Positions 15,176 through 34,240 of a stretch of 64,000 nucleotides of DNA are shown here, piece after piece. The DNA lies in contig CBDHDL010000021.1 of the NCBI GenBank assembly GCA_965261435.1, positions 142,872 to 206,871 on the forward strand, read 5' to 3'. Numbering within the stretch: the stretch's first letter is position 1; the number at the start of each line of letters is the position of its first letter. Below the pieces are notes generated by a model. That model ran no database searches. It saw only the letters and a program-made list of their open reading frames with translations, and was not told the origin of the DNA. This stretch comes from Candidatus Poribacteria bacterium. Its GTDB lineage: Bacteria > Poribacteria > WGA-4E > WGA-3G. Both the position numbers and the translations under genes were made by a program.

Positions 15176-15305
15176 AAGTCAGAATGTTAGACCAGATGTT
15201 TATTATACAGCATTTTTCTGGAGAATGCAATATATCTGCTGAATCATAGATGACAGATTACGCGGACTTTGGTAAATGGAAGAGCAAAAATCTTCACCAC
15301 CTTCA

Positions 15306-16475: not shown

Positions 16476-16661
16476 TTAACTTCCTTTAATATCTGAAAAT
16501 GCAAGAATAGCACGTTATACCATTTCTATTAATTTTTCTCTCATTACCGCCTGTTTAGAAATGAAGCGGGGAACGGCACAATCTAACAGAATGTGCTACA
16601 ACAAAGCAACATTTTCAATTAGAAATGGTATTATTTGATAGGAGTTCTTATTGCACAATAT

Positions 16662-17165: not shown

Positions 17166-17264
17166 CTGAACAAGTAAATCCTTCTACTACATCTTCACCG
17201 CTGAGCGTATCATTTCGTGTAAGTGTTGTGATTTCTGTTTCTGAACGATAGACGGTCACTGTTT

Positions 17265-17741: not shown

Positions 17742-17825
17742 TTAGTTTATCTTCAATGTAATCATAATTTACCACATTATGCCGATATATTTCAACCGTT
17801 TTGTACTATAGAATGTATTCAAAAA

Positions 17826-17862
17826 GATAAGGCGTGAATGCGGAATGCACACACGCCTATTC
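17826..17862 (-). terminator. putative rho-independent terminator downstream of ppdK
   Basis: On the minus strand: AGGCGTG-loop-CACGCCT hairpin followed by TTATCTTTTT. Confidence 0.35.
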
Positions 17863-17883
17863 TGTGAAAAAACAAAATTATGA

Positions 17884-20532: not shown

Positions 20533-20663
20533 TTGAGAGTTTGCAACAAAGATAGATATGCAATTATTGTGTCGTTTGTTCCATTAATGCTTCATCAAGA
20601 GCATCACGAAAATCATTTCATCCTTCTCCTAATAAAATTGTTTAGGCATCGGACAGTTTCCAA

Positions 20664-21023
20664 TTATCCTTGATTGTTAAACGCTGATATCCCGGGTGTT
20701 TTTCGGCTCTTCTGCAAATCCTCATATACAATTCGGGCGATATCGGGGCCAATCTTCTGGAGTTCTTCTTCCAATCCGGCCTCTTGAATAGGGACAGTAG
20801 CAACGAATGCGCCTTTATGTAGATCAATTGGGAAACCGTTTTCTTGTTCAACACCGTCGCGGGCATATCGAACCCGTGCCATGAAGAGCGGTCCATACTC
20901 TCCATCATAGTGGAGTTCTACCCGCAGCAATTCAATAGAATCAGGACCCGGCACGCGCCCAACGAGATCAAGGGTCTTAATTCTAAGGTCCATCTTATTA
21001 ACGTTGTCAACAATGTGTTTCAT
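20664..21023 (-). CDS. hypothetical protein (possible cognate partner of the upstream ART-like gene)
   Basis: 119-aa ORF 25 nt downstream of 21048..21638 on the same strand. No recognisable motifs. Confidence 0.3.
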   Translation of the reverse strand: MKHIVDNVNKMDLRIKTLDLVGRVPGPDSIELLRVELHYDGEYGPLFMARVRYARDGVEQENGFPIDLHKGAFVATVPIQEAGLEEELQKIGPDIARIVYEDLQKSRKTPGISAFNNQG

Positions 21024-21047
21024 GAGAGTATCTCCTCTTCATTCCGA

Positions 21048-21638
21048 TTATGACGGCTCAGGGTAAACATCAAAACTGTTTTTTACACAAGTTGCGGGAA
21101 TAATTCCGTGTGCAAGAATTTCTGCATCCCGCAATGCGCGCACAAGTGTCTCTAATTCGATTGTTAGGTTTGGCGAGCGTGGGGTGCCTTCACTTGAAGG
21201 TGGTTGCCTCGCGTGTTGTATTAGAAAATGTCCCATACGTCCGGGATCAACAATACCCAATAAGAAATCAGGCAACCCATCGTGTTGGTAGGGTGGTCCT
21301 GAATTTGTCGGAGACGGTAACATCTGTGCGACCTCCTTGACTGGATCCAGGAGATGCAATCCAAGTGGTAGCGGTTCGTGAATTTCAATTTCATGAACGT
21401 AGGCAGGATCCTCTGGGTTAGGCACCCTCTCGCTGCCTAACATTGCATAATGCCAAGCCACCGCGTAAGATCGCGTAAGAGAAATAAAAGGACTGTTCAC
21501 AGTGCTTCTGGCAATATGAAGCATCTGTCGAGTTATAGTAGGTGCCATTCCGGGGGACCTTGCAATAAATCCTTGTTCTATTGGATCGTTGAGATACCAA
21601 TATGTGTTAACACCTGCCCCACGATAGAATATCGCCAT
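21048..21638 (-). CDS. hypothetical protein with ADP-ribosyltransferase-like R / S-x-T-x-S / E-x-E motif arrangement (candidate toxin)
   Basis: MAIFYRGAG (aromatic-Arg); ISLTRS about 50 aa later; HEIEIHE (E-x-E) about 30 aa after that. The order and spacing resemble R-S-E class ARTs. This is pattern-based only. Confidence 0.3.
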   Translation of the reverse strand: MAIFYRGAGVNTYWYLNDPIEQGFIARSPGMAPTITRQMLHIARSTVNSPFISLTRSYAVAWHYAMLGSERVPNPEDPAYVHEIEIHEPLPLGLHLLDPVKEVAQMLPSPTNSGPPYQHDGLPDFLLGIVDPGRMGHFLIQHARQPPSSEGTPRSPNLTIELETLVRALRDAEILAHGIIPATCVKNSFDVYPEPS

Positions 21639-21922
21639 AAGTTCCTTTTAATCCTTCTCCTTTTCTCAAATGTGGATATGCCTTAAGTATATCTCTTGTT
21701 GGATAAAAGGTCAAGTGAAAACTCAACCGAGTATCAAGTCGTTCCAATCGGAAAATTGCTCTTGTTTCGGTGAGCAGTAATTTGATAAGGTCGTGGTCAA
21801 GTTGCCATGCGTGGTTTTGACTGCGGCGGTGAGGAGTTCGCCTGATTCGTCAGTAAATTCGGAATGGATTTTGAGGAGTGCGATCAGTTTTTCGTTGAAG
21901 TTTTGTTTTGACATAGAGATTA

Positions 21923-22222
21923 TTAACCATTACCGATCCATTTTAACGCCATACTAACTGAGAATATAATACCTCCTGTTAGGATTGCACCTAAAAACAA
22001 TTGAATCACTGCCATTTTGCCATTAAGTCCTGATATGCTTGTTTCAAGATCAGATATATTTTTTGACAGTTCTTTATGCTCTTTCCTGTTTTCTTCATCC
22101 ATTTTCTTCACATCAGTCTTTAATTCGTTCACATCAGTCTTTAATCCGTTCACATCAGCCTTTAATCCGTTTATATTATCTTCAAGTCTTTTCAGAATTT
22201 CAGTATTGAGTTCATTTGCCAT
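21923..22222 (-). CDS. XhlA-like coiled-coil protein with C-terminal transmembrane helix
   Basis: 99 aa. Tandem heptads LKADVNGLKTDVNELKTDV, then hydrophobic LFLGAILTGGIIFSVSMAL. Confidence 0.35.
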   Translation of the reverse strand: MANELNTEILKRLEDNINGLKADVNGLKTDVNELKTDVKKMDEENRKEHKELSKNISDLETSISGLNGKMAVIQLFLGAILTGGIIFSVSMALKWIGNG

Positions 22223-22403
22223 TGTTTCTCTCCTCGTATTATTTTAGGTCATGCAGAACTTGCGATACTCAACAAGATTAGTGTTCCAGTAACTACATGT
22301 CAGGTTTTTCGGAGGCTCTATCAACCTACAAACTTTGACATATTTAGCCCTTCTATATAGAATTCTATCCATTAGGTTCTTCATCATCTTCGGGTGTTTT
22401 GGG

Positions 22404-22790
22404 TTATATCTCTGGTTCCTCCGGAATCTCAAAATCAGGAACCTGTCCGTTTATTCTGCTTCTGATGACTGATACTACTTCTTTAAGTGAAGCTCGTGTT
22501 CGCCACCAACTTAACATAAGGTAACCGCCAAACATCGGACCTATTACGGTGATAATTGTAAATATTGTTTTTGCAAAATCCCATTTAAAATCTGCTGTTG
22601 CTAAAGCAGCTATACATGTCAACGCAATAGAAAATAGAAAGATCGCAAAATTGAATTGCAGCGTTCCTGCTGCTCCCTTTTCCAATAACTCTAATTCGTG
22701 CTCTTTGACTTCATATAAATCAACGGAGGCAACTCTTCCTCGTCTTACGGGAAGTTTATCTACATTTTGGGCAGAGTCGGGATTAGCCAT
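22404..22790 (-). CDS. hypothetical membrane protein (2 TM helices)
   Basis: FNFAIFLFSIALTCIAALATA and IFTIITVIGPMFGGYLMLSWW are hydrophobic segments. Translationally coupled to 22792..23061. Confidence 0.4.
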   Translation of the reverse strand: MANPDSAQNVDKLPVRRGRVASVDLYEVKEHELELLEKGAAGTLQFNFAIFLFSIALTCIAALATADFKWDFAKTIFTIITVIGPMFGGYLMLSWWRTRASLKEVVSVIRSRINGQVPDFEIPEEPEI

Positions 22791-22791
22791 T

Positions 22792-23061
22792 TTACAATCT
22801 TTCCTTTAGCCATTCATCATGTTTCGTTCCATAACTATTTATCCACGCAGAATATGTTCCAGAACGAATGACAAAAATTCTATCAGATTCAGAAACAGTA
22901 CTACCCAAGGAATCTCTGATTTGAACTGGAGTTTGATCAGAGACGATAGCCCAACAATTATCATGAATAGGGCAAAAAGTACCGTATGTTTTGAGTTTCT
23001 CTTTAAGAGCACTCTTTTTCAAATCATCAGCGACTTCAAAAGTAACAATATAAGTTGTCAT
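22792..23061 (-). CDS. hypothetical protein
   Basis: 89-aa ORF whose stop abuts the start of 22404..22790. No motif recognised. Confidence 0.3.
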   Translation of the reverse strand: MTTYIVTFEVADDLKKSALKEKLKTYGTFCPIHDNCWAIVSDQTPVQIRDSLGSTVSESDRIFVIRSGTYSAWINSYGTKHDEWLKERL

Positions 23062-23192
23062 TGTATTTTCCTGAATTCCGAATATTGAATCTCACACTTG
23101 GTCATAAATATATTAAGTTTATCATACCTCAGGGAAATGGTCAAAGGAAATGTGGAAAGAACCTACAAATTTGGCTTTAGGGTTTGCGTAGC

Positions 23193-23825
23193 TTACTCAG
23201 GAAATGTGACGCGATCATAAATTTCATGCAAGGGGAGTTCACATTCAACTGAAATAAGTGGTAGACGTTCTTCAATGTTTTGAAAATCGGTGAGAATCCA
23301 ATTGTTCTCTTGGCGACTGAAACGTTCAACGCAAATTTTGTCTTGGGCAACGAGGATATATTCCTGTAAAGATGACAGCTGTCGGTAGTGTCTAAATTTT
23401 TCGCCGCGATCATACACCTCGGTTGAAGGAGACAAAACTTCTACAAGAATAATTGGATTGAGAAGTATATCAAAGACGTCATCTTCAAAACGCGGTTCTT
23501 CACAGACGACAACGACATCAGGATAGAAATAGGATAAAGTGCTGGGTGTGCTAACCCGCATTTCGTTTGCATAGGTTTCGCATTCACTGCCTTTCAGGAG
23601 ATTGCGAAGTTCACCAGATATATTACTGGTAATAAGATTATGTGCTCGACTTGCCCCAGACATTGCGATTATTTTCCCATTAACGTACTCACTTCTAACT
23701 GTTTCTGCGTCAGGTATTGCTTTACGTTCTAAAGTGATGTATTCTTCGGGTGTAAGGTATGTTTGTGCTGCAGGAGTTGCCATAAACTCCTCCGGTAATT
23801 CATTAACTTGTGCTGAGGCAAGCAT
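23193..23825 (-). CDS. Uma2 family (DUF820) putative endonuclease
   Basis: EYVNGKIIAMSGAS; YPDVVVVCEEP; NPIILVEVLSPST are classic Uma2 motifs. Confidence 0.7.
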   Translation of the reverse strand: MLASAQVNELPEEFMATPAAQTYLTPEEYITLERKAIPDAETVRSEYVNGKIIAMSGASRAHNLITSNISGELRNLLKGSECETYANEMRVSTPSTLSYFYPDVVVVCEEPRFEDDVFDILLNPIILVEVLSPSTEVYDRGEKFRHYRQLSSLQEYILVAQDKICVERFSRQENNWILTDFQNIEERLPLISVECELPLHEIYDRVTFPE

Positions 23826-23862
23826 AATGACTTATATTTATTGTTATTCGGATGTTTTAGGA

Positions 23863-25224
23863 TTAGATTGAATATATCATTCTACTTGCTTCTTCAAATT
23901 CTGGTTTGAGGGGATCAGTTGAGAGATACAACTTTTGATAAGGTTCATATAGCTGGATGTAACTCCAGTTTACTCCACATAGGACTTTTCCATTATTGAC
24001 GAGTTTAATAAACCTTCCACGAAACTTCGCGCGTGTGTTTTCAGGTGGTGAATGCATCGCCTTCCGTATCTGTGAATCGTCTAATATCCTTTCTATCAGA
24101 CCACGTTTTTCTGCTTTATAGAATATGCTATTTTCTTGTCGAATATTGTGGTATTCCAGGTCCAACCTTTTCACCTCTGCCGAATCCCAGTTTAGTGAAC
24201 GGTGTTTAACATAGGTCTCAATACACTTTCGCTTGATGACCCAATCAAGTTCACGGTCTAATAGCATTGGGTCTTGTTCCAAGCGTTTCATAACATATTC
24301 CCATCGTGTCATCACCTCATCAGTTGTGGGGTCGGACTCGACCTGTTCAAGATACCTTTTTGCACATTCAAAGTATCGCCACTGAAGTTCAATAGCAGAA
24401 AGTCGTTTTCCGTTGTCTAATTCAATTAGTCTTTTGCAAGTAATGTCATCTGAAATCTCATGTATAGCTTGTACAGAATTCCGTAGTGCGAAGTGTTCGT
24501 TGATAAAGTGGTCTTCAATCATCCGAAGGATAATTCCAGTAGTCCCAACTTTCAAGAAAGTTGCGTATTCGGACATATTAGAATCTCCGACGATGACATG
24601 TAGTCGTCTATATTTTTCTCTATCAGCGTGTGGTTCATCACGTGTATTAATTATGCCGCGTGCGGTGGTAGTAGCGATTGATATTTCTTCTCTGATATGT
24701 TGTGCGCGTTGTGAGATTTCGTAGAAACCTTGATCACTTCGTTTGACTTTTCCCGCGCCAGTGTAAATTTGTCGGGTGACAAAAAAAGGAATGAGTTGTG
24801 AAGCGAGTTGCCTAAAACTAACCTTTTCACGTTCCATCAGATAGTTTTCATGACAACCGTAAGTATTTCCGACTGTATCTAAGTTGTTCTTAAAGATAGA
24901 GATTTTACCTCTAAAACCGTCCGCCTTCATGCGTCGTTCTGCAGTCGTCGCGAGTCGTGTAACGATGCGTTCTCCTGCTTTATCGTGTGCTACCAAATCA
25001 ATGACATCATCACATTCAGGTGTAGCATATTCAGGGTGACACCCGATATCTTGGTAGAATCTTGCCCCGTTTTCTAAAAACACGTCTGGATACATGCGTC
25101 CAGAGATTATTTCACGGAACAGATACATCACCACATTCTGAACGGTAAGTTTTTTCCCTCTATGCTTCTCTGGTGTACAAATAATACCGTATTCAGTTTC
25201 CAAGCCATAAATTCTACGATGCAT
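23863..25224 (-). CDS. pafA: Pup--protein ligase PafA
   Basis: N-terminal IYGLETEYGI. Carboxylate-amine ligase fold shared with the Dop paralog at 27057..28538. It is the shorter of the two (453 aa) and sits distal to pup, as in actinobacterial loci. Confidence 0.8.
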   Translation of the reverse strand: MHRRIYGLETEYGIICTPEKHRGKKLTVQNVVMYLFREIISGRMYPDVFLENGARFYQDIGCHPEYATPECDDVIDLVAHDKAGERIVTRLATTAERRMKADGFRGKISIFKNNLDTVGNTYGCHENYLMEREKVSFRQLASQLIPFFVTRQIYTGAGKVKRSDQGFYEISQRAQHIREEISIATTTARGIINTRDEPHADREKYRRLHVIVGDSNMSEYATFLKVGTTGIILRMIEDHFINEHFALRNSVQAIHEISDDITCKRLIELDNGKRLSAIELQWRYFECAKRYLEQVESDPTTDEVMTRWEYVMKRLEQDPMLLDRELDWVIKRKCIETYVKHRSLNWDSAEVKRLDLEYHNIRQENSIFYKAEKRGLIERILDDSQIRKAMHSPPENTRAKFRGRFIKLVNNGKVLCGVNWSYIQLYEPYQKLYLSTDPLKPEFEEASRMIYSI

Positions 25225-25924
25225 GGTTCAATATCTCAGTTATATCTTCTATAGAAAACCTGCGAAACTTCCGTCTGCCAGCAGTAGCATCCAAGCACGC
25301 AACTTCTATGGTTTGTGGCGTAATCTCATACGGTTCTGACTCTTCAGATTCAATTTTTTCAAAGGTTTGAGATGCAAGTTGTATTGCATCCGTTAAGTCT
25401 AAACCATCGGCATAGTTTTCTTGTAGAATCTCGACAATTGCCTCTGCTCTTCCACCGATAACAGCGTAATTATCCACTTCACGATATGTTCCATCAAAAT
25501 CGATGTAGTATATCTGGTGTCCTATTGATGCGTCTCCATCTACTTCACAGACGAGCAATTCAATTTCCAGTGGTTTTGCATCCCAAGCCTGTGAAATTGT
25601 CCCCATGTGCTGTGAATATATATTAGTCAACCACTTAGCAGTAACATCCTCTCTAAAGTAGGTGTAGCCTTTCACCTCTGCTTCACGGATTCCTGCGACA
25701 CGCAATGCCTCATACTCAGCAATTCGTCCTGTAGATGCAAGTGCGATTTTGTCGTATATTTCAGATATCTTATAGGTTGTTCTGCGTGGGTTCTCAGCCA
25801 CCATTAAGAGACCATTTTCATAAGCTAAGACAACGACCTCTTTTGCTTGCTCTATACCTCGACGGACAAAGTCTCTTTTATCTTCCCAAATCTGCTCAGG
25901 AGAAACATAATAGGGTGTTGACAT
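25214..25924 (-). CDS. prcA: 20S proteasome alpha subunit
   Basis: 236 aa with no propeptide. Immediately downstream of prcB. Family-like N-terminal region YVSPEQIWEDKRDFVRRGI. Confidence 0.8.
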   Translation of the reverse strand: MSTPYYVSPEQIWEDKRDFVRRGIEQAKEVVVLAYENGLLMVAENPRRTTYKISEIYDKIALASTGRIAEYEALRVAGIREAEVKGYTYFREDVTAKWLTNIYSQHMGTISQAWDAKPLEIELLVCEVDGDASIGHQIYYIDFDGTYREVDNYAVIGGRAEAIVEILQENYADGLDLTDAIQLASQTFEKIESEESEPYEITPQTIEVACLDATAGRRKFRRFSIEDITEILNHAS

Positions 25925-25968
25925 TAATACTCCATGAAAGTTCTACCGTTAACCTGTAACTATCAAAT

Positions 25969-26760
25969 CTAAGGTTGTTTTAATCGGGAAATTAACTCCC
26001 GGAACAATTCTGCAACGGTGTCAACTGGAATCTCAGATACACCTTCTTTTGTAATTGTTGTTAAGGATGGAAAGATATTTCTGATTAGGTCTGGACCGCC
26101 CGTTGCAATATCTTCATCAGCGGCATCCCAAAGTGCTTCAGCTACAGCTTCCAATGCGGATTCTTTTGACATCTCAGGTTGAAACGTCTTCTTAAGCGTT
26201 GAGCGTGCATCTTTCCCACCCGAACCGATAGCATAATAGGTGTCTTCTTCGTAACGTCCACCTAAAGCATCGTATTTAAAGATGCGACCTTTCTCAAGTC
26301 GGCGATCATATCCTGCAAAAATCGGTAAGACAATCAATCCTTGCATTGCTAAAGTTAGGTTTGATCTCACAAGTGTAGACAGATAATTGGCTTGTCCATC
26401 CAAGCTTAAGGACATACCTTCAATCTTTTCATAATATTCCACCTGAACTTGAAAAAGTTTAGCAGTTTCAATACAGGGTCCCGCTACCCCAGCGACTGCT
26501 ATTGCAGAATGTTGATCGATTTTATACACTTTCTGAATTCGTCGTTCCCCAACTTGATAACCTTCTGTAGCTTGACGGTCCCCTGCGATTATAACACCGT
26601 CGTTGTAGACAAGCGCGAGCACAGTGGTACCTTCCAATATATTGTTAGGTAGATTATCATTTATGTCGTTCAGCCGGTTCCAATCACCGACCTGATCGGG
26701 GTGTCGATCTTTTAATACTTGTAAAAAATCTGTCATTCCATATTCATGGAGTTTGAGCAA
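25969..26760 (-). CDS. prcB: 20S proteasome beta subunit (with propeptide)
   Basis: Propeptide followed by the catalytic N-terminal Thr context EG-TTVLALVYNDGVIIAGDRQ. Confidence 0.85.
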   Translation of the reverse strand: MLKLHEYGMTDFLQVLKDRHPDQVGDWNRLNDINDNLPNNILEGTTVLALVYNDGVIIAGDRQATEGYQVGERRIQKVYKIDQHSAIAVAGVAGPCIETAKLFQVQVEYYEKIEGMSLSLDGQANYLSTLVRSNLTLAMQGLIVLPIFAGYDRRLEKGRIFKYDALGGRYEEDTYYAIGSGGKDARSTLKKTFQPEMSKESALEAVAEALWDAADEDIATGGPDLIRNIFPSLTTITKEGVSEIPVDTVAELFRELISRLKQP

Positions 26761-26762
26761 TC

Positions 26763-26960
26763 CTACTGTCCTCCCCGCTGTATATAGTTTTCGACGAATT
26801 CCTCAGAATCTTCTTCTAAAATCTCATCGATTTCGTCAAGTAGTGCATCTAAGTCTTCGGTTAATTCGTCAACATTATCATTGAGTTCGGGATTAGGATA
26901 AATCTCCTCATTTTCTTTGATGGAGTTATCTTTGTATTCTTGCTGTTTTTCGCTTGGCAT
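26763..26960 (-). CDS. pup: prokaryotic ubiquitin-like protein Pup
   Basis: 65-aa acidic protein ending in ...FVENYIQRGGQ, the Pup C-terminal GGQ. It sits between dop and prcB, and its stop is 3 nt from the prcB start. Confidence 0.8.
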   Translation of the reverse strand: MPSEKQQEYKDNSIKENEEIYPNPELNDNVDELTEDLDALLDEIDEILEEDSEEFVENYIQRGGQ

Positions 26961-27056
26961 GTCGTGCTCCTTATTAGAATTACAGTTACGAAAACCTGTA
27001 TACCGATGTTATCTTACTTTGACAAGAGGGTTAAACATCTTTCAACAAGATTATTT

Positions 27057-28538
27057 TCAGTCATCACGAAGTTGGTTCACGAGTTCATCAACTGTACATG
27101 TACTAAGTAATTCACCGATTATTCTCTGTGTGCCGAAGTGAGGACGTTCCATCATAATTTTGTCAAAACCTGTAGGGCCGTTGAAAATAATAGAATTCCA
27201 ACTCACACTATGAATGTCATTTGGAAATTTACGTAGACAAGTACCTCTAAAATAGGCTCGTGTATCTAAAGGTGGATGCTGTATGGCATGGACAATTTCC
27301 TCATGAGATAATATACGTTCTACATGTCCATTTTTGAGCAGTCTTAGGTAAAGTCCTTTATCTGGACGCAAGTCATGATACTGTAGATCAAGCATTCGGA
27401 CGCGTGGGTCTGTCCATTCAAAACCGTGCCGTTCGATATACGCATCAATAAGTCTTTTCTTGATAATCCAATCTAAATATTTTCCTAAAGCCATCGGATC
27501 CGTTTGTAAATTCCCTAATACGAAATCCCATTTCTTCAAGAGATCATCTACAATAGGTGTTCTTTCTTCTCCGGATAAGTGTTTATGGGCGAGTTCAAGG
27601 TATTCACGTTGAATATTTATTGCTGTCAATTTGCGTCCATCTTTAAGTTCTAACTCATGTGTGCACTTTAAATCCCGCGAAACTGTTTTAATCGCTTTGA
27701 CTGGATCTTCTAAAGCAAATTTGTTACCGATGACACCTTTCTCAATCAATTGTAAGACAATTGCCGTGATTCCTACTTTCAAGTATATCGTAAATTCTGA
27801 CATGTTGGAATCTCCAACTATGACATGTAATCTCCGATAAAGTCTGGAATCCGCGTGGGGTTCATCTCGTGTATTTATCAATGGTCGTTCGACCATTGTG
27901 CTTAGACCGACTTCTTTCTCAAAGAAATCTGCACGTTGTGAAATCTGATAATCGGCATCGTCGGCTCCGTTTTCAGCACCGACCTTCCCACTGCCAGTTA
28001 TTATCTGTCGTGTTACTATAAAGGGTGTAAATCCATCAACAATATCCGTGAATTCCACCTTCCGCGACATCAAATAGTTTTCATGCGATCCGTAACTATG
28101 TCCTTTATAGTCTGTATTATTCTTATATATTATGATTTCTTGATTATCCAATAATAACTGTTCTGCTGCGAGTCTGCTAAGGTCTAAAATTAGCTCTCCT
28201 GCTTTTTCATATTTGACGAGATCGCGTGCATTTGAACATTCAGGCGTACAATATTCAGGATGTGCATGGTCAACGTAATATCGTCCGCCGTTTATTAATA
28301 TATCATTGATAACACTGTAGGTATCTTCCTCAACCACCGGTTTCTGACTAACATCAATGAAACCTCGTGCATCCATCAAAGGACTTTCTTGTGCATAATC
28401 CCACGATATACTGGGAATATTACGGCTTTTATATGCATTAACAACTAATGTTGATGCTGCAATTGGATCTTGTTCTCTTGCGTTTTTAACAGAAATACCA
28501 AATTCTGTTTCTGTTCCAATTATCGTTGGTGTTGACAT
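27057..28538 (-). CDS. dop: Pup deamidase/depupylase Dop
   Basis: N-terminal IIGTETEFGIS. 493 aa, longer than the PafA paralog, consistent with the Dop-loop insertion. Located between arc and pup. Confidence 0.8.
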   Translation of the reverse strand: MSTPTIIGTETEFGISVKNAREQDPIAASTLVVNAYKSRNIPSISWDYAQESPLMDARGFIDVSQKPVVEEDTYSVINDILINGGRYYVDHAHPEYCTPECSNARDLVKYEKAGELILDLSRLAAEQLLLDNQEIIIYKNNTDYKGHSYGSHENYLMSRKVEFTDIVDGFTPFIVTRQIITGSGKVGAENGADDADYQISQRADFFEKEVGLSTMVERPLINTRDEPHADSRLYRRLHVIVGDSNMSEFTIYLKVGITAIVLQLIEKGVIGNKFALEDPVKAIKTVSRDLKCTHELELKDGRKLTAINIQREYLELAHKHLSGEERTPIVDDLLKKWDFVLGNLQTDPMALGKYLDWIIKKRLIDAYIERHGFEWTDPRVRMLDLQYHDLRPDKGLYLRLLKNGHVERILSHEEIVHAIQHPPLDTRAYFRGTCLRKFPNDIHSVSWNSIIFNGPTGFDKIMMERPHFGTQRIIGELLSTCTVDELVNQLRDD

Positions 28539-28637
28539 ATTTCTTTGTGTCAGTCATTCAAATGTTTAGGCAAATGTTTAGGACAAAATTCCGTTGAAAA
28601 TCTAATCTAAAATACAATAGTATCATCAACTGATATT

Positions 28638-30434
28638 TTATAGGTATGATCCACCTTTGCTAACTCTAACTTCGGGTTTTCTGCGCGTTTCGGGTTCATT
28701 AATTAATGCTCGAATATTGACTATTTTTTCACCTTTTCTACCAGAAATCTTAGCCCAATCATCTGGGTTAGTTGTATTGGGAAGATCTTCATTTTCACGG
28801 TATTCTTCACGTATAGCAGTCTTTAGGTCATTTAAAGAGATACCTTTTTCCCTACCTTCAGAACTGATTAGGCGTTTAATTGCCATCTTCTTTGCCCGTG
28901 AAACTATGTTTCTAATCATCGCGCCACTAACAAAATCTTTGAAGAATAACGTTTCACGTTCGCCTCGTGTGTAGGTAACCTCAATAAATCGGTTATCATC
29001 TCTGGTTGCATACATTTCATCAGCAGCTTCAGAAATAAGGTGTTTGACAACATCTTCAGCATTACCGTCAAATTTTTCCCGTACTGCATCTGCAAGCGGT
29101 AGGTCAGGTGTAAGATAGATTCCAAATATATCTTTTGCGCCGTCAATGTTAGGACGATCAATCTTAATTTTAATGTCAAGCCTGCCGGGTCTTAATACAG
29201 CAGGGTCAAGAAGATCTTGCCTATTACTTGCTCCAATGACAATCACATCACGTAAGTTCTCAACGCCATCTATCTCAGCAAGGAATTGCGGCACTAAAGT
29301 TGACTCCATATCCGAGGATATTCCCATACCACGTGAACGAAATAACGAATCCATTTCATCAAAGAATATGACAACAGGAAATCCTTCTCTTGACTTATCC
29401 CGTGCTTTTTGAAATACTTCTCGAATTTTTCTTTCAGTTTCACCAACATACTTATTCAAAAGCTCAGGACCTTTAATGTTGATAAAATAGCCTCTAATGT
29501 CTTCCCTACCCGATTTTTGTCTGATGCGTTCTGCGAGACAATTTGCAACTGCCCTTGCGATCAGAGTCTTTCCACAACCTGGTGGGCCATAGAGCAATAC
29601 ACCTTTTGGGGGTGTGAGGTCAAATTCTTTATATTCTTCAGGGTATAGATAGGGCATTTCTATTGCGTCTCGAATCGCCTCAATCTGCGTGTCCAATCCA
29701 CCTATGTCAGCATAACTTATATCAGGTACTTCTTCGAGCAGTAAATCATCAAGTTCGCGCTTTGGAAGTTTCTCAAGAAGCATCCCGCTGCTATGATTCA
29801 ACAGAACGGTATCCCCTGTTTTTAGTGTTTCTTCTTTTAATGCGGATGAAACACGCACGACCTGTTCTTCATCGGTTCTCAGGCTTACAACAGCGCGTCC
29901 AGATTCAAGTACCTCCTTGATCTTTACCACATCTCCATGTTTTTCAGGAGGTTTAACTGCGACAACGTTCAGTCCACTATTAACGATTACTTCTTGCCCT
30001 ACATCAATCTGATCAGCTTTAATAGTTGGATCAAGATTAACTCTCCATTTCTTTCCACCGATGTCTACATCAATGGTATTATCATCATTAGTACCGAGAA
30101 AGATTCCGTAATTATTCGGAGGTGCACTGAGTTGTTTCACTTTCTCTTTTAATAGCTCAAGTTTCTCTCTTGCTTCTTGAAGTGTCCCGGTGAGTTTTCG
30201 ATTGCGTCTGTGTGCTTGCATTAATTCGCGTGTCATTTCATACAGGCGCGCATCAACATCTTCATCTGGTGAACTTCTGAGTTGTCTTCTTAGATCTGAG
30301 ACCTCGTTTTGAAGCATCTCAATTTGCCAATTTAGTTCTCGAACCATTTGAGGATAATCGATATTATCAGTTTCGATACCTTCAATATCGGAACTTTTCA
30401 ATAAGTCAGATGAAGTGTCTCTTTTAGTTGCCAT
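28638..30434 (-). CDS. arc: proteasome-associated AAA+ ATPase ARC/Mpa
   Basis: N-terminal coiled coil; Walker A GPPGCGKTLIARAVAN; Walker B VIFFDEMD; C-terminus ...GGSYL resembles the Mpa GQYL docking tail. Confidence 0.85.
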   Translation of the reverse strand: MATKRDTSSDLLKSSDIEGIETDNIDYPQMVRELNWQIEMLQNEVSDLRRQLRSSPDEDVDARLYEMTRELMQAHRRNRKLTGTLQEAREKLELLKEKVKQLSAPPNNYGIFLGTNDDNTIDVDIGGKKWRVNLDPTIKADQIDVGQEVIVNSGLNVVAVKPPEKHGDVVKIKEVLESGRAVVSLRTDEEQVVRVSSALKEETLKTGDTVLLNHSSGMLLEKLPKRELDDLLLEEVPDISYADIGGLDTQIEAIRDAIEMPYLYPEEYKEFDLTPPKGVLLYGPPGCGKTLIARAVANCLAERIRQKSGREDIRGYFINIKGPELLNKYVGETERKIREVFQKARDKSREGFPVVIFFDEMDSLFRSRGMGISSDMESTLVPQFLAEIDGVENLRDVIVIGASNRQDLLDPAVLRPGRLDIKIKIDRPNIDGAKDIFGIYLTPDLPLADAVREKFDGNAEDVVKHLISEAADEMYATRDDNRFIEVTYTRGERETLFFKDFVSGAMIRNIVSRAKKMAIKRLISSEGREKGISLNDLKTAIREEYRENEDLPNTTNPDDWAKISGRKGEKIVNIRALINEPETRRKPEVRVSKGGSYL

Positions 30435-30482
30435 ACAAAAAGTTCTCTCTTTCCATTGAAAAGATTGATGATAGGGTAAAAA

Positions 30483-30511
30483 AAGGTTGGATTTTTACGA
30501 TTCCAACCTTA
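30483..30511 (-). terminator. rho-independent terminator downstream of recA
   Basis: On the minus strand, the AAGGTTGGA-atcgtaaaaa-TCCAACCTT hairpin is followed by TTTTTTT. Confidence 0.55.
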
Positions 30512-30563
30512 GCACGTATAAGTATAGCATGTTGAAATATTTACTTCAAGAAAAACAAGCGTG

Positions 30564-31727
30564 TTAACTATTATTAGTATCTGATGTTGATGCATCAGTG
30601 TTTTCAAATTCCGTTTCTACTTCATCATCAACAACATCAACAGCAGGTATACTTCCTGCAGCGGATTCAGATTGCGCCATTGTACTCAGATTCTCACGTA
30701 TTTTCTTATCAAGTTCAGTTGCGATCTCAGGATTCTGTTCTAAATAGGTTTTCACATTATTGCGTCCTTGTCCAATCCGTTCATTGTTGTAAGAAAACCA
30801 TGAACCTCTTTTTTGAATGAATCCTGCTTCAACTGCGATATCTAAAAGGTTTCCTTCTATTGAGATACCTTTACCGAATGTTATATCAAACTCTGCTTCC
30901 CTGAATGGCGGTGCAACTTTATTCTTGACGACCTTGACAAGTACTCGATTTCCAAGAACATCTTGTCCTTCTTTTATCTGTGTAGCCCGTCGGATTTCCA
31001 ATCGCACAGAAGCATGAAACTTCAGCGCAAGTCCACCGGGTGTAGTATCTGGATTTCCAAACATGATTCCTATCTTCTGTCGGATTTGGTTTGTAAAAAT
31101 CACACAGGTTTTGGATTTGTTTGTTACGCCAGATAGTTTTCGTAGTGCTTTTGACATCAATCTTGGCAATAAACCGACATGTGCATCGCCCATTTCACCT
31201 TCCACTTCTGCTTGAGGTGTCAATGCAGCAACGGAGTCAATAATAACGACATCTATTGCCCCGCTTCGTATAAGGGTTTCTACAATCTCCAATGCTTGTT
31301 CACCGGCATCTGGCTGGGAAATTAATAGATTTTCCAGATTCACACCGATACTACGTGCATAGGTAGTGTCCAATGCGTGTTCAACATCTATAAATGCTGC
31401 GATGCCCCCCATTTTTTGTGCTTCAGCGACGACGTGCAGTGCTAATGTTGTTTTTCCTGTTCCTTCATGCCCAAAGACTTCAATGATTCTCCCACGAGGG
31501 ACGCCGCCGACACCTAACGCGAGGTCTAATGCAAGTGCACCGGTAGGAATAACTTCCACCGGAACAACTTCGTCGCCGGTCAGACGCATAATTGCCCCTT
31601 TACCATAAGCGCGTTCAACCTGAGATATGGCATCATCAACCGCCTTCTTTTTCTCTGCTGCGTTTTTCTGTTCTTCCGGACTAAGTTCATTGTCTAAACT
31701 GTTTTTGTCATCATTCGCCATTATCAA
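30564..31727 (-). CDS. recA: recombinase RecA
   Basis: [20 protein letters not shown] (Walker A). L1/L2 regions conserved. It has an about 20-aa N-terminal extension and an acidic C-terminal tail. Confidence 0.95.
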
Positions 31728-32303
31728 CTATCTCCTACTCAATTGAAATTTTTTAATAGGTGTGTATACCGATCCACTTGGGTGTAGTTTGCTTTTGACT
31801 AATACAATTTCATTTACTGTCAGCTTTGAATTTTGTAAGGTGTCATATTCCTCAAATATATCCTTAAAACCACTCAAATTCATAGGATTTCTTATTCTTG
31901 CCAGTGTAACATGTGGGTGAAATCGACTCTCGTTCTTAAAACCTAAGTGTACCATTTCAGTGTTAATTTCTTGACCTAATTCTGTTGTAGTCAATGTTCC
32001 TTGTTTTAATCCAATCCATAAGACGCGTGGTCGTGGTATGTTCGGAAATGCCCCTATACCACCAAAATTCAAAGGAAAAGGTTCATATTTTTTTGAAATA
32101 TATTCTATGGTATTGCCGATCTGAGAAATTCTATTCTGCTTTACATCACCAAGGAATTTCAAGGTCAAATGAAAGTTCCCCAATTTTGTCCAGGATGCAT
32201 TACTAATCCTTGACCTTAATGTAGTCTGTATCTCCTCAAAAATCTTTTGAATACTATGTGGTAACTCAATAGCAATAAAACACCGAATAGAGGAATCTCT
32301 CAT
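31728..32303 (-). CDS. thpR: RNA 2',3'-cyclic phosphodiesterase (2H family, ThpR/LigT)
   Basis: Two H-x-T-x motifs, HLTLKFLG and HVTLARI. 191 aa. Confidence 0.7.
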   Translation of the reverse strand: MRDSSIRCFIAIELPHSIQKIFEEIQTTLRSRISNASWTKLGNFHLTLKFLGDVKQNRISQIGNTIEYISKKYEPFPLNFGGIGAFPNIPRPRVLWIGLKQGTLTTTELGQEINTEMVHLGFKNESRFHPHVTLARIRNPMNLSGFKDIFEEYDTLQNSKLTVNEIVLVKSKLHPSGSVYTPIKKFQLSRR

Positions 32304-32333
32304 GACAATTTTATTAAAGAGTGCACGTTTTGC

Positions 32334-32921
32334 TTAAGTTGAAAATGCCTTTCGATTCCCGTATAGGAACTCAATTCCAGAGGTTACCGTTATTATGACT
32401 GGTAAATACATCATAAAATAGATGGGACCGTAAGGTTGAATAACCATTTCAGAATCGAGGTAGAATACCAATAAAAGTAAACTAATTGTTATTATACTAA
32501 GTTGGGTTACAGTTTTGTATTTTCCCCATTTATTAGCGGAAATTACATCCCCATCCTTAGCCACAACAATGATTCGGAATGTAGTTACTATTGTCTCCCG
32601 TCCGAGTATGACCAGCACCATCCAGATAGGAATAAGCCTTGCCCCATTTGCTAAGTGTTCATGTTGAAATAGATAGAAACTGATTAACGCTGCAGCTACA
32701 AGAATTTTATCCACGATGGAATCCATAAAGCTTCCAAACTCTGTTATCCCCTGCTTTCGTGCGATTTTCCCATCTAATAGGTCTGTTAACGCTGCTAACC
32801 CGAAACAGATAGCAGAAGGAAACATCATTTTTGCGCGAAAGAAGAATAGAAAAGGAACTGTTAGCAATAACCGTGAAAATGTTAGTAAATTTGCTAAACG
32901 TAAATATGGATGAGAACTCAT
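32334..32921 (-). CDS. pgsA: CDP-alcohol phosphatidyltransferase (CDP-diacylglycerol--glycerol-3-phosphate 3-phosphatidyltransferase-like)
   Basis: CDP-OH transferase motif DLLDGKIARKQG...GSFMDSIVDK and multiple TM helices. Confidence 0.7.
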   Translation of the reverse strand: MSSHPYLRLANLLTFSRLLLTVPFLFFFRAKMMFPSAICFGLAALTDLLDGKIARKQGITEFGSFMDSIVDKILVAAALISFYLFQHEHLANGARLIPIWMVLVILGRETIVTTFRIIVVAKDGDVISANKWGKYKTVTQLSIITISLLLLVFYLDSEMVIQPYGPIYFMMYLPVIITVTSGIEFLYGNRKAFST

Positions 32922-32927
32922 AAGTGT

Positions 32928-33686
32928 TTATTTTTCCGTAAAGTCAATCACCTCTGCATCTTCTGGAATTTTGAACTTAAATACATCTGCAGTTAACTGC
33001 TTATCTCGTTCAATCTTGGATAGCGTTGTTATTACACTCCTGCGGCTCTTATCAGAATATTCCATAACATATCCGAATTGGACGGGTAGCCAATCTTCTT
33101 CCTGGACCCAAATTTCAAGTGTTTCTTTTACCTGATCTTCATCAGGTGTTTCTTTTACAGTTGTATTTAGCAGATGTGGTTTTGGTGTCAATCTAATTTG
33201 AAACACGCCTTTAGCATTTGCGGCTTCATCGGGGACAAGTTCCATGTTCCAGTTTGATGACACATCTTCAAGAGATGCCCCGACACCAGGTAGTATCTCC
33301 CGTCGTTTTGAGGTATCCCATTTCTTTTTGTTGACTTGGTTGTATATTGGAACATAAGACCATGCGAAAGAACCATCTAAGACGATTACTTTTACGATCC
33401 GTTTCGGATCTTTTGGAGAGACATATTCCTTCCGTAGTAAGTTGGGTTTACCAAATGTGAAGTGTCCGCGTGCAACCCTTTCCTGTGCTTTAAATAGGGT
33501 CGTCTCCTCAAATTCAGCACTGAAATTTTTTGACTCAGTATAAGCGTTTTTGAAATTTTCAAATATTTCATCAACCGTATAGGTATGGGCATTGACACTA
33601 ATACCAAACATCAGTAATAACAGAATCAAAATACAGAAGTGATATTTCACAATGAATCTCCTATCATGTGAGCTGAGGGACGGCAT
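32928..33686 (-). CDS. LolA-like outer-membrane lipoprotein carrier/sorting family protein
   Basis: Signal peptide followed by a pattern reminiscent of the LolA fold. This is a weak motif-level call. Confidence 0.4.
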   Translation of the reverse strand: MPSLSSHDRRFIVKYHFCILILLLLMFGISVNAHTYTVDEIFENFKNAYTESKNFSAEFEETTLFKAQERVARGHFTFGKPNLLRKEYVSPKDPKRIVKVIVLDGSFAWSYVPIYNQVNKKKWDTSKRREILPGVGASLEDVSSNWNMELVPDEAANAKGVFQIRLTPKPHLLNTTVKETPDEDQVKETLEIWVQEEDWLPVQFGYVMEYSDKSRRSVITTLSKIERDKQLTADVFKFKIPEDAEVIDFTEK

Positions 33687-33724
33687 TTGTTAAGAAGATA
33701 GTATATCACACCCAATTTTGCATG

Positions 33725-34240
33725 TCAACGATATTTTTCCGATGTTTCCATCTGAACTGCTTTCTCAATATCTACGTCGGAAGTTAAAATACGCGTCCAA
33801 TCACTTAATTCTACTTCATGACCATCAGTATCATCCAAGGCAAAGTAGACAAGTGTTTCTAAAGTTTTAGACAACTGCGTATCACGAAAAAGTGCTTGGA
33901 ACCAGATACCGAAAAGTTTTAATGCCTCGGATGATTCTGAGAATACCCAAAAGATTACACGGCAGAAATCAAGTCCTTCGTCAACTGATTGGTGCGAAAT
34001 CCATACTTCAGAAGGAAAATCGTGAAAATGGGGTAGAAGATCAGCAATAATGACTGTTTTTTCATGATTCAAGTATGTAATCTCAGGAAAGATGTCTAAT
34101 TGGATAGAATATTTCTGTGCATAAAGTGTAGTTTCTTGAATTTTAGTGTTCATTATCACTCTCCAGTCGCAATATAACAGAATGTGGTACAAAGAACGCA
34201 AGCTAACAGAATGCCTCTTATTGGCGAGGGTGTTGTTCAA
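33725..34240 (-). CDS. hypothetical protein
   Basis: 171-aa ORF with no recognisable motif. Confidence 0.3.
   Translation of the reverse strand: MNNTLANKRHSVSLRSLYHILLYCDWRVIMNTKIQETTLYAQKYSIQLDIFPEITYLNHEKTVIIADLLPHFHDFPSEVWISHQSVDEGLDFCRVIFWVFSESSEALKLFGIWFQALFRDTQLSKTLETLVYFALDDTDGHEVELSDWTRILTSDVDIEKAVQMETSEKYR

What the first reader, a model, noticed from the sequence alone, without database searches (positions are those of the whole stretch)
23863..30434. Complete Pup-proteasome locus (arc-dop-pup-prcB-prcA-pafA) in a low-GC, apparently non-actinobacterial genome
All six components are present in the canonical actinobacterial order. Pup ends in GGQ and therefore requires Dop deamidation. 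ARC ends ...GGSYL, similar to the Mpa GQYL docking tail. prcB has a propeptide before TTVLAL.

Outside Actinobacteria, intact loci are reported only sporadically (for example Nitrospirae and some PVC lineages). Their presence here, together with T9SS-type CTDs and Uma2 genes, is taxonomically informative and suggests horizontal acquisition or an unusual lineage.
Basis: partly seen in the sequence, partly recalled or inferred. Interest (0 to 1): 0.5.

Follow-up and report, generated by a model that had tools for sequence, protein, structure and literature searches.

The report
Poribacteria Pup-proteasome operon, native and ordinary
The window carries a complete, intact bacterial "ubiquitin-like tag plus proteasome" gene cluster, in a sponge-symbiont bacterium of the candidate phylum Poribacteria. 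The cluster is a conserved native feature of that phylum and is already annotated in public genomes, so it is real but ordinary.

Summary
Six minus-strand genes at 23863-30434 encode ARC/Mpa, Dop, Pup (ending QRGGQ), PrcB (44-aa propeptide before Thr1), PrcA and PafA. Each matches its family profile and keeps its catalytic motifs.

The genome is not actinobacterial. It is a Candidatus Poribacteria bacterium: 78 of the 80 best PafA loci in species-representative genomes are Poribacteria MAGs, including closed chromosomes, and the window is collinear with one over 20 kb.

The locus is not a recent import:
- 72 of 78 Poribacteria loci carry all six genes in the same order. Most of the rest are cut by contig ends.
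- About 50 loci have the same recA-thpR-pgsA neighbours.
- GC, GC3 and codon usage match the flanks.
- Divergence of the locus proteins tracks RecA divergence.
- PafA and Dop each form a well-supported Poribacteria clade that is not nested in the labelled actinobacterial sequences.

An ancient transfer at or before the base of the phylum cannot be excluded.

NCBI and JGI already name these proteins in Poribacteria, and Pup systems outside Actinobacteria have been described since 2008. Interest is therefore low.

One item outside the window is new to me: Poribacteria also encode ECF sigma factors fused to degenerate PafA-like domains.

The parts
30521..30549 (-). Sigma-70-type promoter candidate upstream of arc: -35 TTGAAG (30549-30544), 17-nt spacer, extended -10 TGcTATACT (-10 hexamer at 30526-30521).
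   Evidence: The consensus scan hit is not significant on its own. However, the block cTTGAtGTAAA...CAACATGcTATACT is conserved in 15 of 16 close Poribacteria relatives while the surrounding intergenic DNA varies. Sequence read. Function is inferred, not shown.
30478..30510 (-). Hairpin in the arc leader: AAGGUUGGA, 10-nt loop, UCCAACCUU, followed by a U-run. Possibly a 5' stabiliser, a weak attenuator or the recA terminator.
   Evidence: Fold -16.7 kcal/mol, z = -1.65, so not significant alone. Several relatives keep a hairpin with changed stem letters (TTGGA/TCCAA against TCGGTT/AACCGA), but L001 and L002 lack it. Role unknown.
28638..30434 (-). arc/mpa: proteasomal AAA+ ATPase with an N-terminal coiled coil, two OB domains, an AAA module and the C-terminal tail ...KGGSYL.
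   Evidence: TIGR03689 713 bits; Pfam Prot_ATP_ID_OB_N, Prot_ATP_ID_OB_C and AAA. 592 bits to M. tuberculosis Mpa over residues 37-581, with Walker A GPPGCGKT, Walker B FFDEMD and pore loop KYVGE aligned.
27057..28538 (-). dop: Pup deamidase/depupylase.
   Evidence: TIGR03688 571 bits, above the cutoff of 492. 469 bits to Acidothermus Dop, full length. A Dop-loop insertion is present, with YVDHAHPEY around the catalytic Asp and an EVGL-type alpha-loop.
26763..26960 (-). pup: 65-aa acidic tag ending ...LLDEIDEILEEDSEEFVENYIQRGGQ.
   Evidence: PF05639 63.8 bits; TIGR03687 53.4 bits, above the cutoff of 41.45. The C-terminal 12 residues are nearly invariant in 75 related loci, ending GGQ in 56 and GGE in 19.
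25969..26760 (-). prcB: 20S beta subunit. It starts 2 nt after the pup stop codon. The propeptide is 44 aa (26760-26629) and the Thr1 codon is at 26628-26626.
   Evidence: TIGR03690 279 bits. 228 bits to Rhodococcus beta1. Mature PDB chains start at query residue 45. Thr1, Asp17 and Lys33 were read from TTVLALVYNDGVIIAGDRQATEGYQVGERRIQK.
25214..25924 (-). prcA: 20S alpha subunit.
   Evidence: TIGR03691 242.6 bits, above the cutoff of 139, full length 1-232.
23863..25224 (-). pafA: Pup ligase. It overlaps the end of prcA by 11 nt.
   Evidence: Pfam Pup_ligase 510 bits. TIGR03686 519 bits, the best model for this protein but below its cutoff of 551. It has GLETEYG (the GhExE motif) and a PafA-type one-residue insertion after the catalytic Asp (D-I-G-C-HPEY). 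It has no Dop loop, and TRDEPHAD and RRLH are intact. The discriminating positions are from PMC7947786.

Best explanation
This is the native Pup-proteasome system of a Candidatus Poribacteria bacterium, organised as one compact six-gene unit (arc-dop-pup-prcB-prcA-pafA) directly downstream of recA. It was probably inherited vertically within the phylum.

The inferred mechanism is the canonical one established in mycobacteria:
1. Dop deamidates the C-terminal Gln of Pup (GGQ to GGE).
2. PafA uses ATP to activate that gamma-carboxylate and ligates it to substrate lysines.
3. The ARC/Mpa hexamer captures Pup on its coiled coils, unfolds the tagged protein and feeds it into the PrcA/PrcB 20S core. 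The core is activated by autocatalytic removal of the 44-residue PrcB propeptide, which exposes Thr1.
4. Dop also removes Pup again.

Shown here: the genes, their order, their family membership, the integrity of the catalytic and docking motifs, the host lineage and phylum-wide conservation. Inferred, not shown: expression, every enzymatic step and the substrates.
For: Family assignment and motifs:
- All six profiles match.
- Catalytic residues are intact against solved actinobacterial structures.
- PafA and Dop are told apart by the Dop loop and by the residues around the catalytic Asp, using the published discriminating positions (PMC7947786).

Host lineage:
- 78 of the 80 best PafA loci in species-representative genomes are Poribacteria, at 96% down to 59% identity. 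The next best are Acidimicrobiales at 51%.
- The window is collinear with Poribacteria locus L001 over window 14374-34117, at about 81% nucleotide identity.
- LRR/cadherin repeat proteins in the window fit a sponge symbiont.

Native and old:
- 72 of 78 Poribacteria loci hold all six genes in order. Four of the other six are truncated contigs.
- 51 loci keep recA upstream, most of them with thpR and pgsA.
- Identity of each locus protein to the window correlates with RecA identity (Spearman 0.54-0.87).
- Locus GC is 0.404 against 0.420 +/- 0.038 for the rest of the window, and GC3 is 0.322 against 0.351 +/- 0.051. The RSCU correlation is 0.92, against 0.87 +/- 0.05 for controls.
- A promoter-like block upstream of arc is conserved among relatives.

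Phylogeny (neighbour-joining, 100 bootstraps):
- Poribacteria PafA and Dop clades have 99-100% support.
- The Dop clade is sister to an Entotheonellia Dop (91%).
- Neither clade is nested among the labelled actinobacterial sequences.
Against: - PafA scores below the curated NCBIfam equivalog cutoff (519 against 551).
- PafA departs from actinobacterial 'uniquely conserved' PafA residues at several positions: Gln for Leu before the catalytic Asp, Cys for Ser two residues after it (the Cys in D-I-G-C), Pro for Ala in ATPE, alpha-loop HIREEISIATTTA against HIWEGVSSATTRS, and Asn for Asp418 (M. smegmatis numbering). Ligase activity is therefore inferred, not certain.
- By phmmer, PafA scores slightly higher against Acidothermus Dop (347.5 bits) than against Corynebacterium PafA (340.4 bits).
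- No expression or biochemical data exist.
- Deep nodes of the tree are unsupported, with bootstrap values under 25. The ultimate origin of the system, whether vertical from a deep ancestor or by ancient transfer, is unresolved.
- No pafBC, bpa or cpa homologues were seen next to the locus.
Confidence: 0.9

Rival explanations
1. The locus was recently transferred from an actinobacterium into this genome, or the contig is an actinobacterial contaminant or chimera.
For: The system is best known from Actinobacteria. The nearest non-Poribacterial genome hits are Acidimicrobiales (51% PafA identity). An Ilumatobacteraceae PafA is among the closest 50%-cluster representatives (47%).
Against: - Composition and codon usage are the same as the flanks.
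- The same locus, with the same neighbours, occurs in dozens of Poribacteria genomes. These include closed 5-7 Mb chromosomes.
- Divergence parallels that of RecA.
- Within-phylum identities are 66-96%, against at most 51% to any other lineage.
- The Poribacteria clades are monophyletic and are not inside the actinobacterial groups.
Confidence: 0.02
2. The system entered the Poribacteria stem lineage, or a common ancestor with other Gram-negative candidate phyla, by ancient horizontal transfer that originated in Actinobacteria. This is what Hecht et al. 2020 proposed for Nitrospirae and other phyla. On this view the locus is native today but is not ancestral to bacteria outside Actinobacteria.
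For: - The distribution outside Actinobacteria is patchy (PMC2588565; PMC7947786).
- The whole six-gene block travels together in the same order as in Acidimicrobiales locus L079.
- The neighbours in the tree come from unrelated phyla: Moduliflexus, Tectomicrobia/Entotheonellia and Nitrospinota. Entotheonellia Dop is sister at 91% bootstrap. Members of that class are known to me as sponge symbionts too, though the source of this sequence was not checked.
Against: Nothing here speaks directly against it. The deep branching order is unresolved (bootstrap under 25), so neither the direction nor the timing of any transfer can be read. This reading is compatible with the main explanation for everything that concerns the window itself.
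Confidence: 0.45
3. The locus is a 'UBact'-type system distinct from Pup, or a decaying or partly non-functional remnant. One form of this would be tagging without degradation, or a PafA that is really a second depupylase.
For: - PafA is below the equivalog cutoff and scores about equally against a Dop structure.
- PafA has several non-canonical residues at ligase-specific positions.
- An Arg precedes the C-terminal GGQ, as in the UBact motif as I recall it.
Against: - Pup passes both Pup models and ends in GG[Q/E], not R[T/S]G[E/Q].
- All six genes are intact ORFs with intact catalytic motifs, and they are conserved across the phylum. That conservation implies purifying selection.
- PafA lacks the Dop loop and has the ligase-type D-x-G-x-HPEY insertion and S-x-A-T-T alpha-loop core.
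- PrcB keeps Thr1, Asp17 and Lys33.
Confidence: 0.05

Closest known systems
Actinobacterial Pup-proteasome system (M. tuberculosis / M. smegmatis Mpa-Dop-Pup-PrcB-PrcA-PafA; Rhodococcus ARC and 20S; Acidothermus Dop; Corynebacterium PafA)
   Same: - All six components are present in the same order, as also seen in Acidimicrobiales locus L079.
- Pup has the same C-terminal half (LLDEIDEILEE...FVENYIQRGGQ).
- ARC has the same domain plan as Mpa (592 bits).
- PrcB has a propeptide and the Thr1/Asp17/Lys33 residues.
- Dop has a Dop loop and PafA lacks one.
   Different: - The host is a Gram-negative-type candidate phylum with about 40% GC.
- pafA directly overlaps prcA, and no pafBC follows it; a Uma2 gene does.
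- The ARC tail is GG[S/T/A][Y/F]L instead of GQYL.
- The propeptide is 44 aa, against 57 in M. tuberculosis and 65 in Rhodococcus, derived from the alignments.
- PafA differs at several positions that are invariant in actinobacterial PafA, and it falls below the TIGR03686 cutoff.
- The locus is fixed next to recA.
Non-actinobacterial Pup / 'UBact' loci (Nitrospirae, Verrucomicrobia such as Methylacidiphilum, Nitrospinota, Tectomicrobia/Entotheonellia, Moduliflexus, Armatimonadota)
   Same: These are complete or near-complete Pup-proteasome gene sets in Gram-negative lineages (PMC2588565, PMC2474590, PMC7947786). They are the nearest sequence relatives of the Poribacteria PafA and Dop. From memory, not verifiable with the held library: Lehmann et al. 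2017 (BBRC, the 'UBact' paper) list Poribacteria among the candidate phyla that carry such a tag.
   Different: As I recall it, the UBact definition is a C-terminus R-[T/S]-G-[E/Q]. The Poribacteria tag ends R-G-G-[Q/E] and passes the Pup models, so it is Pup proper. Here the system is phylum-wide with fixed synteny rather than sporadic.
Archaeal PAN-20S proteasome
   Same: It has homologous 20S alpha and beta subunits and a homologous AAA+ unfoldase with an OB ring. The archaeal models give secondary hits.
   Different: There is no Pup, PafA or Dop in archaea. All the window proteins score far better against the bacterial equivalog models.

Membership tests
Pup-proteasome system (PPS) | Pup: a small protein (about 60-70 aa) with a conserved C-terminal helix region that ends in Gly-Gly-Gln or Gly-Gly-Glu | tested here: met
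   65 aa, ending YIQRGGQ. PF05639 63.8 bits and TIGR03687 53.4 bits, above the cutoff of 41.45. Conserved in 75 related loci.
Pup-proteasome system (PPS) | PafA ligase: carboxylate-amine ligase fold with the GhExE ATP motif and the catalytic Asp in a D-x-G-x-HPEY context, no Dop loop, and intact TRDEPHAD and RRLH motifs | tested here: met
   GLETEYG, FYQDIGCHPEY, INTRDEPHAD and YRRLHV are present, and there is no 35-40-aa loop. Criteria from PMC7947786.
Pup-proteasome system (PPS) | PafA reaches the curated equivalog score of NCBIfam TIGR03686 | tested here: not met
   519.3 bits against a cutoff of 551.3. This is a property of a model that I assume was built mainly on actinobacterial sequences, not of the enzyme. 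TIGR03686 is still the best-scoring model, 105 bits above Dop. NCBI names the orthologues either 'Pup--protein ligase' or 'PafA2 family protein'.
Pup-proteasome system (PPS) | Dop deamidase/depupylase: a PafA paralogue with a Dop-loop insertion and a D-H-A-HPEY active-site context | tested here: met
   TIGR03688 571.5 bits, above the cutoff of 492.3. The loop and YVDHAHPEY are present.
Pup-proteasome system (PPS) | Mpa/ARC: coiled coil, double OB and AAA+ module, with Walker A, Walker B and pore loop, and a C-terminal tail with a penultimate aromatic residue for docking on the 20S core | tested here: met
   TIGR03689 713 bits. Aligned to M. tuberculosis Mpa residues 25-591. The tail is GGSYL. 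Actual docking cannot be tested here.
Pup-proteasome system (PPS) | 20S core: a PrcB subunit with a propeptide and the Thr1/Asp17/Lys33 nucleophile set, plus a PrcA subunit | tested here: met
   TIGR03690 279 bits and TIGR03691 243 bits. Residues read from the alignment with the Rhodococcus and M. tuberculosis beta subunits.
Pup-proteasome system (PPS) | Biochemical activity: deamidation, pupylation, depupylation and Pup-dependent degradation | not testable with these tools
   No expression or biochemical data are available. Everything is inferred from homology.
UBact (Pup-like tag of Gram-negative phyla, Lehmann et al. 2017; definition recalled from memory) | C-terminus R-[T/S]-G-[E/Q] | tested here: not met
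   The window tag and 74 Poribacteria tags end R-G-G-[Q/E]. The paper could not be opened, so the definition is from memory.
   The nearest genomes are all Candidatus Poribacteria. Flanking genes are collinear with a Poribacteria locus.

The most novel reading that the evidence does not exclude
The Pup-proteasome system is an ancestral, phylum-wide trait of Poribacteria that has been elaborated there. Besides the canonical operon in this window, other Poribacteria genomes encode ECF sigma factors fused to a duplicated PafA domain. That domain has lost the ligase active site but keeps the C-terminal-domain motifs, which I take to lie in the Pup-binding part of the enzyme. If the pseudo-ligase domain senses free Pup or pupylated proteins, pupylation would be wired directly to transcription. 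That link has not been described for any Pup system, to my knowledge and in the held literature. The window itself contains only the ordinary operon.
Probability: 0.2. Interest if true: 0.55.

Novelty: already known. Interest (0 to 1): 0.2.

Why it matters
It matters little beyond bookkeeping. The result fixes the taxonomic origin of the window as Candidatus Poribacteria. It also shows that the Pup-proteasome system is a stable core feature of that phylum rather than a sporadic import.

This adds one more well-sampled Gram-negative lineage to the debate on whether the system spread from Actinobacteria. It also offers natural sequence variants that could be used to probe which residues are truly essential for ligase activity and for docking:
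- GGQ against GGE tags
- Tyr against Phe in the ARC tail
- a PafA that breaks several 'invariant' actinobacterial positions

The sigma-PafA fusions found in passing are the only item that might open a new question.

Tried and rejected
- An exact look-up of the window PafA in the assembly index found nothing, so the window's own contig could not be identified.
- No tRNA, rRNA or Rfam element in the window could help with taxonomy.
- The generic promoter and terminator scan of 23000-32500 gave counts close to the shuffled expectation (30 against 25 promoters, 12 against 6 terminators). Only the site upstream of arc gained support, from cross-species conservation.
- Literature searches for Poribacteria with proteasome or pupylation returned no paper that discusses this system in Poribacteria. 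The UBact paper is not held, and searching 'UBact' gave mostly unrelated hits.
- Deep phylogeny: only neighbour-joining with a Kimura correction was possible. All nodes joining phyla have bootstrap values under 25, so I make no claim about the donor or the direction of transfer.
- Cluster look-ups gave an organism name for only 8 of 30 representatives. One Dop-like protein is labelled 'Woesearchaeota archaeon', which I treat as probable mis-binning.
- I considered that the 677-aa top representative (P0121) was a PrcA-PafA read-through. This was rejected, because its N-terminus is an ECF sigma factor.
- I considered that the window 'PafA' might be a second Dop, because it scores marginally higher against Acidothermus Dop than against Corynebacterium PafA. 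This was rejected on the missing Dop loop and the ligase-type active-site insertion.
- tblastn missed Pup in L061. Reading the ORFs showed that it is present and ends VQRGGE.

Full report
OBSERVATION

- ARC/Mpa: 30434..28638, 598 aa, ending ...VSKGGSYL
- Dop: 28538..27057, 493 aa
- Pup: 26960..26763, 65 aa, ending ...EFVENYIQRGGQ
- PrcB: 26760..25969, 263 aa from a TTG start 2 nt after the pup stop, with ...LEG|TTVLAL...
- PrcA: 25924..25214, 236 aa
- PafA: 25224..23863, 453 aa, overlapping prcA by 11 nt

Every protein matches its family with very strong statistics:
- TIGR03689: 713 bits
- TIGR03688: 571 bits
- TIGR03687: 53 bits
- TIGR03690: 279 bits
- TIGR03691: 243 bits
- Pfam Pup_ligase for PafA: 510 bits

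The one blemish is that PafA reaches 519 bits on the equivalog model TIGR03686, whose curated cutoff is 551.

CATALYTIC AND DOCKING RESIDUES

- PrcB aligns with the Rhodococcus and M. tuberculosis beta subunits, and the mature PDB chains begin at query residue 45. The propeptide is therefore 44 aa, and Thr1, Asp17 and Lys33 are in place.
- ARC aligns with M. tuberculosis Mpa over residues 37-581 (592 bits). Walker A (GPPGCGKT), Walker B (FFDEMD) and the pore loop (KYVGE) are all present.
- I told Dop and PafA apart with the positions tabulated by Hecht et al. 2020 (PMC7947786).
- The window Dop has the roughly 35-40-residue Dop loop, YVDHAHPEY around the catalytic Asp and an E-V-G-L alpha-loop.
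- The window PafA lacks the loop. It has the ligase-type one-residue insertion (D-I-G-C-HPEY), a partly ligase-type alpha-loop (H-I-R-E-E-I-S-I-A-T-T-T-A-R) and intact GLETEYG, TRDEPHAD and RRLH motifs.
- PafA differs from the actinobacterial consensus at several 'uniquely conserved' ligase positions. One of these is Asn in place of Asp418 (M. smegmatis numbering). This fits the sub-threshold equivalog score.

WHOSE GENOME

A scan of one genome per GTDB species with the window PafA returned 80 loci. Of these, 78 are Candidatus Poribacteria MAGs (96% down to 59% identity), including many closed 5-7 Mb chromosomes. The next best are Acidimicrobiales at 51%.

The window is collinear with Poribacteria locus L001 over window 14374-34117, at about 81% nucleotide identity.

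The rest of the window fits a sponge symbiont:
- a run of LRR plus cadherin repeat proteins at 34941-45760, one of which carries a Por_Secre_tail domain
- two Uma2 genes
- RtcB, PPDK and MetH

NATIVE OR IMPORTED

- I searched all 80 loci with the six window proteins and four flanking proteins. All six genes occur in the same order in 71 of the 78 Poribacteria loci. Reading the ORFs added L061, whose Pup tblastn had missed, which gives 72.
- Four of the remaining six loci are cut by contig ends. One (L072) has a stand-alone intact pafA. One (L077) is a different protein, described below.
- In 51 loci recA lies upstream as in the window, usually with thpR and pgsA.
- Across those 51 loci, the identity of each locus protein to the window correlates with RecA identity (Spearman 0.54-0.87).
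- Locus GC is 0.404 and GC3 is 0.322. Both lie within the spread of the other 32 long ORFs of the window (0.420 +/- 0.038 and 0.351 +/- 0.051). The locus codon usage correlates with the rest of the window at r = 0.92, at least as well as random gene subsets do (0.87 +/- 0.05).
- A neighbour-joining tree was built from PafA and Dop of the window, ten Poribacteria, one Acidimicrobiales locus and 50%-cluster representatives from a 1.8-billion-protein library. After length filtering, 148 sequences were used. It gives Poribacteria clades with 99-100% bootstrap for both enzymes.
- The Dop clade is sister to an Entotheonellia Dop (91% bootstrap).
- The PafA clade lies near Moduliflexus (51% identity), Tectomicrobia and Nitrospinota sequences. 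It is not among the labelled actinobacterial ones (Dermatophilus, Ilumatobacteraceae, Acidimicrobiales).
- All nodes joining phyla have negligible support. An ancient transfer, as Hecht et al. propose for Nitrospirae, can be neither confirmed nor excluded. A recent transfer into this genome is excluded.

OPERON SIGNALS

The generic promoter scan is at chance level overall. One hit, however, lies in a block that is conserved in 15 of 16 close relatives while the surrounding spacer varies. It sits between recA and arc: TTGAAG, 17 nt, then TG-n-TATACT, at 30549-30521.

A 9-bp hairpin with a U-run follows at 30510-30478. Its energy is not significant (z = -1.65), and two relatives lack it. Together with the tight spacing of the genes, this points to one transcription unit from arc to pafA. 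The relevant spacings are:
- pup-prcB: 2 nt
- prcA-pafA: 11-nt overlap
- dop-pup and arc-dop: gaps under 100 nt
- prcB-prcA: 44-nt gap

This is inferred, not shown.

MECHANISM

Nothing in the sequences calls for anything but the canonical pathway known from mycobacteria (established knowledge; PMC3511204 and PMC7947786 summarise it):
1. Dop deamidates Pup-GGQ.
2. PafA phosphorylates and ligates the C-terminal Glu to substrate lysines.
3. ARC binds Pup and unfolds the substrate into the 20S core.
4. Dop reverses the tag.

Within Poribacteria, 56 loci have GGQ and 18 have GGE. The GGE lineages all keep Dop where the contig covers its position, which fits Dop's second role as depupylase.

COMPARISON WITH WHAT IS KNOWN

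- Pup systems outside Actinobacteria were described in 2008 (Iyer et al., PMC2588565; Methylacidiphilum, PMC2474590) and again in 2020 (PMC7947786).
- From memory, the 2017 'UBact' paper lists Poribacteria among the carriers. I could not open it.
- Public annotation already names the orthologues 'Pup--protein ligase [Candidatus Poribacteria bacterium]', 'proteasome accessory factor PafA2 family protein' or 'proteasome accessory factor A'.
- The Pup-ligase family is very large in metagenomes, with 6130 clusters at 50% identity at E<=0.001.
- I found no open-access paper that discusses the system in Poribacteria.

This is therefore an annotated but undiscussed feature. I rate it as already known, with low interest.

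NOTICED ON THE WAY

The closest 50%-cluster representative to the window PafA (P0121, 60% identity) is a 677-aa protein. Its first 200 or so residues are an ECF sigma factor (Sigma70_r2 plus r4_2), and the rest is a Pup_ligase domain.

- The same architecture is encoded at L077:9365-11419 in a Poribacteria chromosome.
- It occurs in at least 20 clusters at 90% identity. These fall into two subfamilies, and NCBI names one of them a Poribacteria sigma-70 family factor.
- The ligase part is about 67% identical to canonical Poribacteria PafA, which points to a lineage-specific duplication.
- In subfamily A the HPEY histidine, the alpha-loop threonines and part of the NNxDxxGN loop are lost.
- In subfamily B the ExE motif, the catalytic Asp and the CHENY histidine are all lost.
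- The C-terminal-domain motifs (PPENTRAKFRG, NWSYIQLYEPYQKL) stay conserved in both subfamilies.
- The gene neighbourhoods are not conserved.
- I found no literature on this architecture.

These genes are not in the window, and they do not change the verdict on the finding.

VERDICT

The locus is an ordinary, native, already-annotated Pup-proteasome operon of Candidatus Poribacteria.

Noticed in passing
L077:9365-11419 (Poribacteria chromosome OZ244587.1); proteins P0121, P0125, P0337-P0349, P0351, P0352, P0357, P0364, P0365; loci L081, L082. Not in the window.: ECF sigma factor (Sigma70_r2 plus r4_2) fused to a PafA-like domain, 657-684 aa. There are at least 20 clusters at 90% identity in two subfamilies, and all that carry an organism label are Poribacteria. 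The ligase active site is eroded in subfamily A and destroyed in subfamily B, while the C-terminal-domain motifs stay conserved. This could be a pseudo-ligase sensor domain controlling a sigma factor. No conserved neighbours and no literature were found.
   Followed up: partly
window 30478-30549 (minus strand), between recA and arc: A promoter-like block (TTGAAG, 17 nt, TGcTATACT) is conserved in 15 of 16 close relatives. A 9-bp hairpin with a U-run lies in the arc leader. Some relatives show stem covariation, and L001 and L002 lack the hairpin. A terminator-like hairpin placed after a promoter is odd. Its role (recA terminator, attenuator or stabiliser) is unknown.
   Followed up: partly
window 30564-31727 (recA) next to 28638-30434 (arc); the same in 51 Poribacteria loci: The Pup-proteasome operon sits immediately downstream of pgsA-thpR-recA on the same strand across much of the phylum. 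From memory, in mycobacteria the PPS and PafBC are tied to the DNA-damage response and RecA turnover. Whether the adjacency here has any functional meaning was not examined.
   Followed up: no
ARC C-termini in L016-L063 and other loci: The penultimate aromatic residue of the ARC docking tail is Phe instead of Tyr in 26 of 73 loci with a readable ARC end (GGTFL in 25, GGTFF in one). The window has GGSYL, and Acidimicrobiales L079 and Poribacteria L074 have GQYL. This is a natural test of the requirement for Tyr in docking on the 20S core.
   Followed up: no
Pup C-termini in 75 loci: Both GGQ (56 loci) and GGE (19 loci, 18 of them Poribacteria) tags occur, on an otherwise invariant EFVENYIQRGG tail. 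The GGE lineages keep dop wherever the contig covers its position.
   Followed up: partly
window 34941-45760 (plus strand): Four large LRR plus cadherin plus Big_9 repeat proteins lie in a row. The ORFs at 39022-40986 and 40718-43357 overlap by about 270 nt, and 34941-39038 overlaps 39022-40986 by 17 nt. These may be one or two giant genes broken by frameshifts or assembly errors in repeats. Only the 40718-43357 ORF carries a Por_Secre_tail (27.9 bits, just above the cutoff of 27).
   Followed up: no
window 5370-12160 (minus strand): A 1213-aa protein with an N-terminal sacsin-type domain (PF25794, 53 bits) lies directly downstream of, and on the same strand as, a 1027-aa SNF2-family helicase. 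The pair may be a defence or DNA-remodelling module. Not examined.
   Followed up: no
window 20664-23061 (minus strand): Several small ORFs between PPDK and Uma2 have no Pfam match, or only a weak DUF7587 hit. This stretch is only patchily alignable with the closest relative L001, with gaps at 20529-21821 and 22239-22717, so it is a variable islet just downstream of the operon.
   Followed up: no
P0189 (868 aa; lineage unknown): A full-length Pup_ligase domain is fused to C-terminal TPR and HEAT repeats. This is another non-canonical architecture in the family.
   Followed up: no
L072:about 3075-4424: One Poribacteria MAG contig has an intact canonical-looking pafA that is not next to prcA. 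It is flanked by an oxidoreductase gene and, two genes downstream, a likely DNA methyltransferase (judged by eye, not profiled). This is the only exception to the fixed gene order among contigs long enough to judge.
   Followed up: partly
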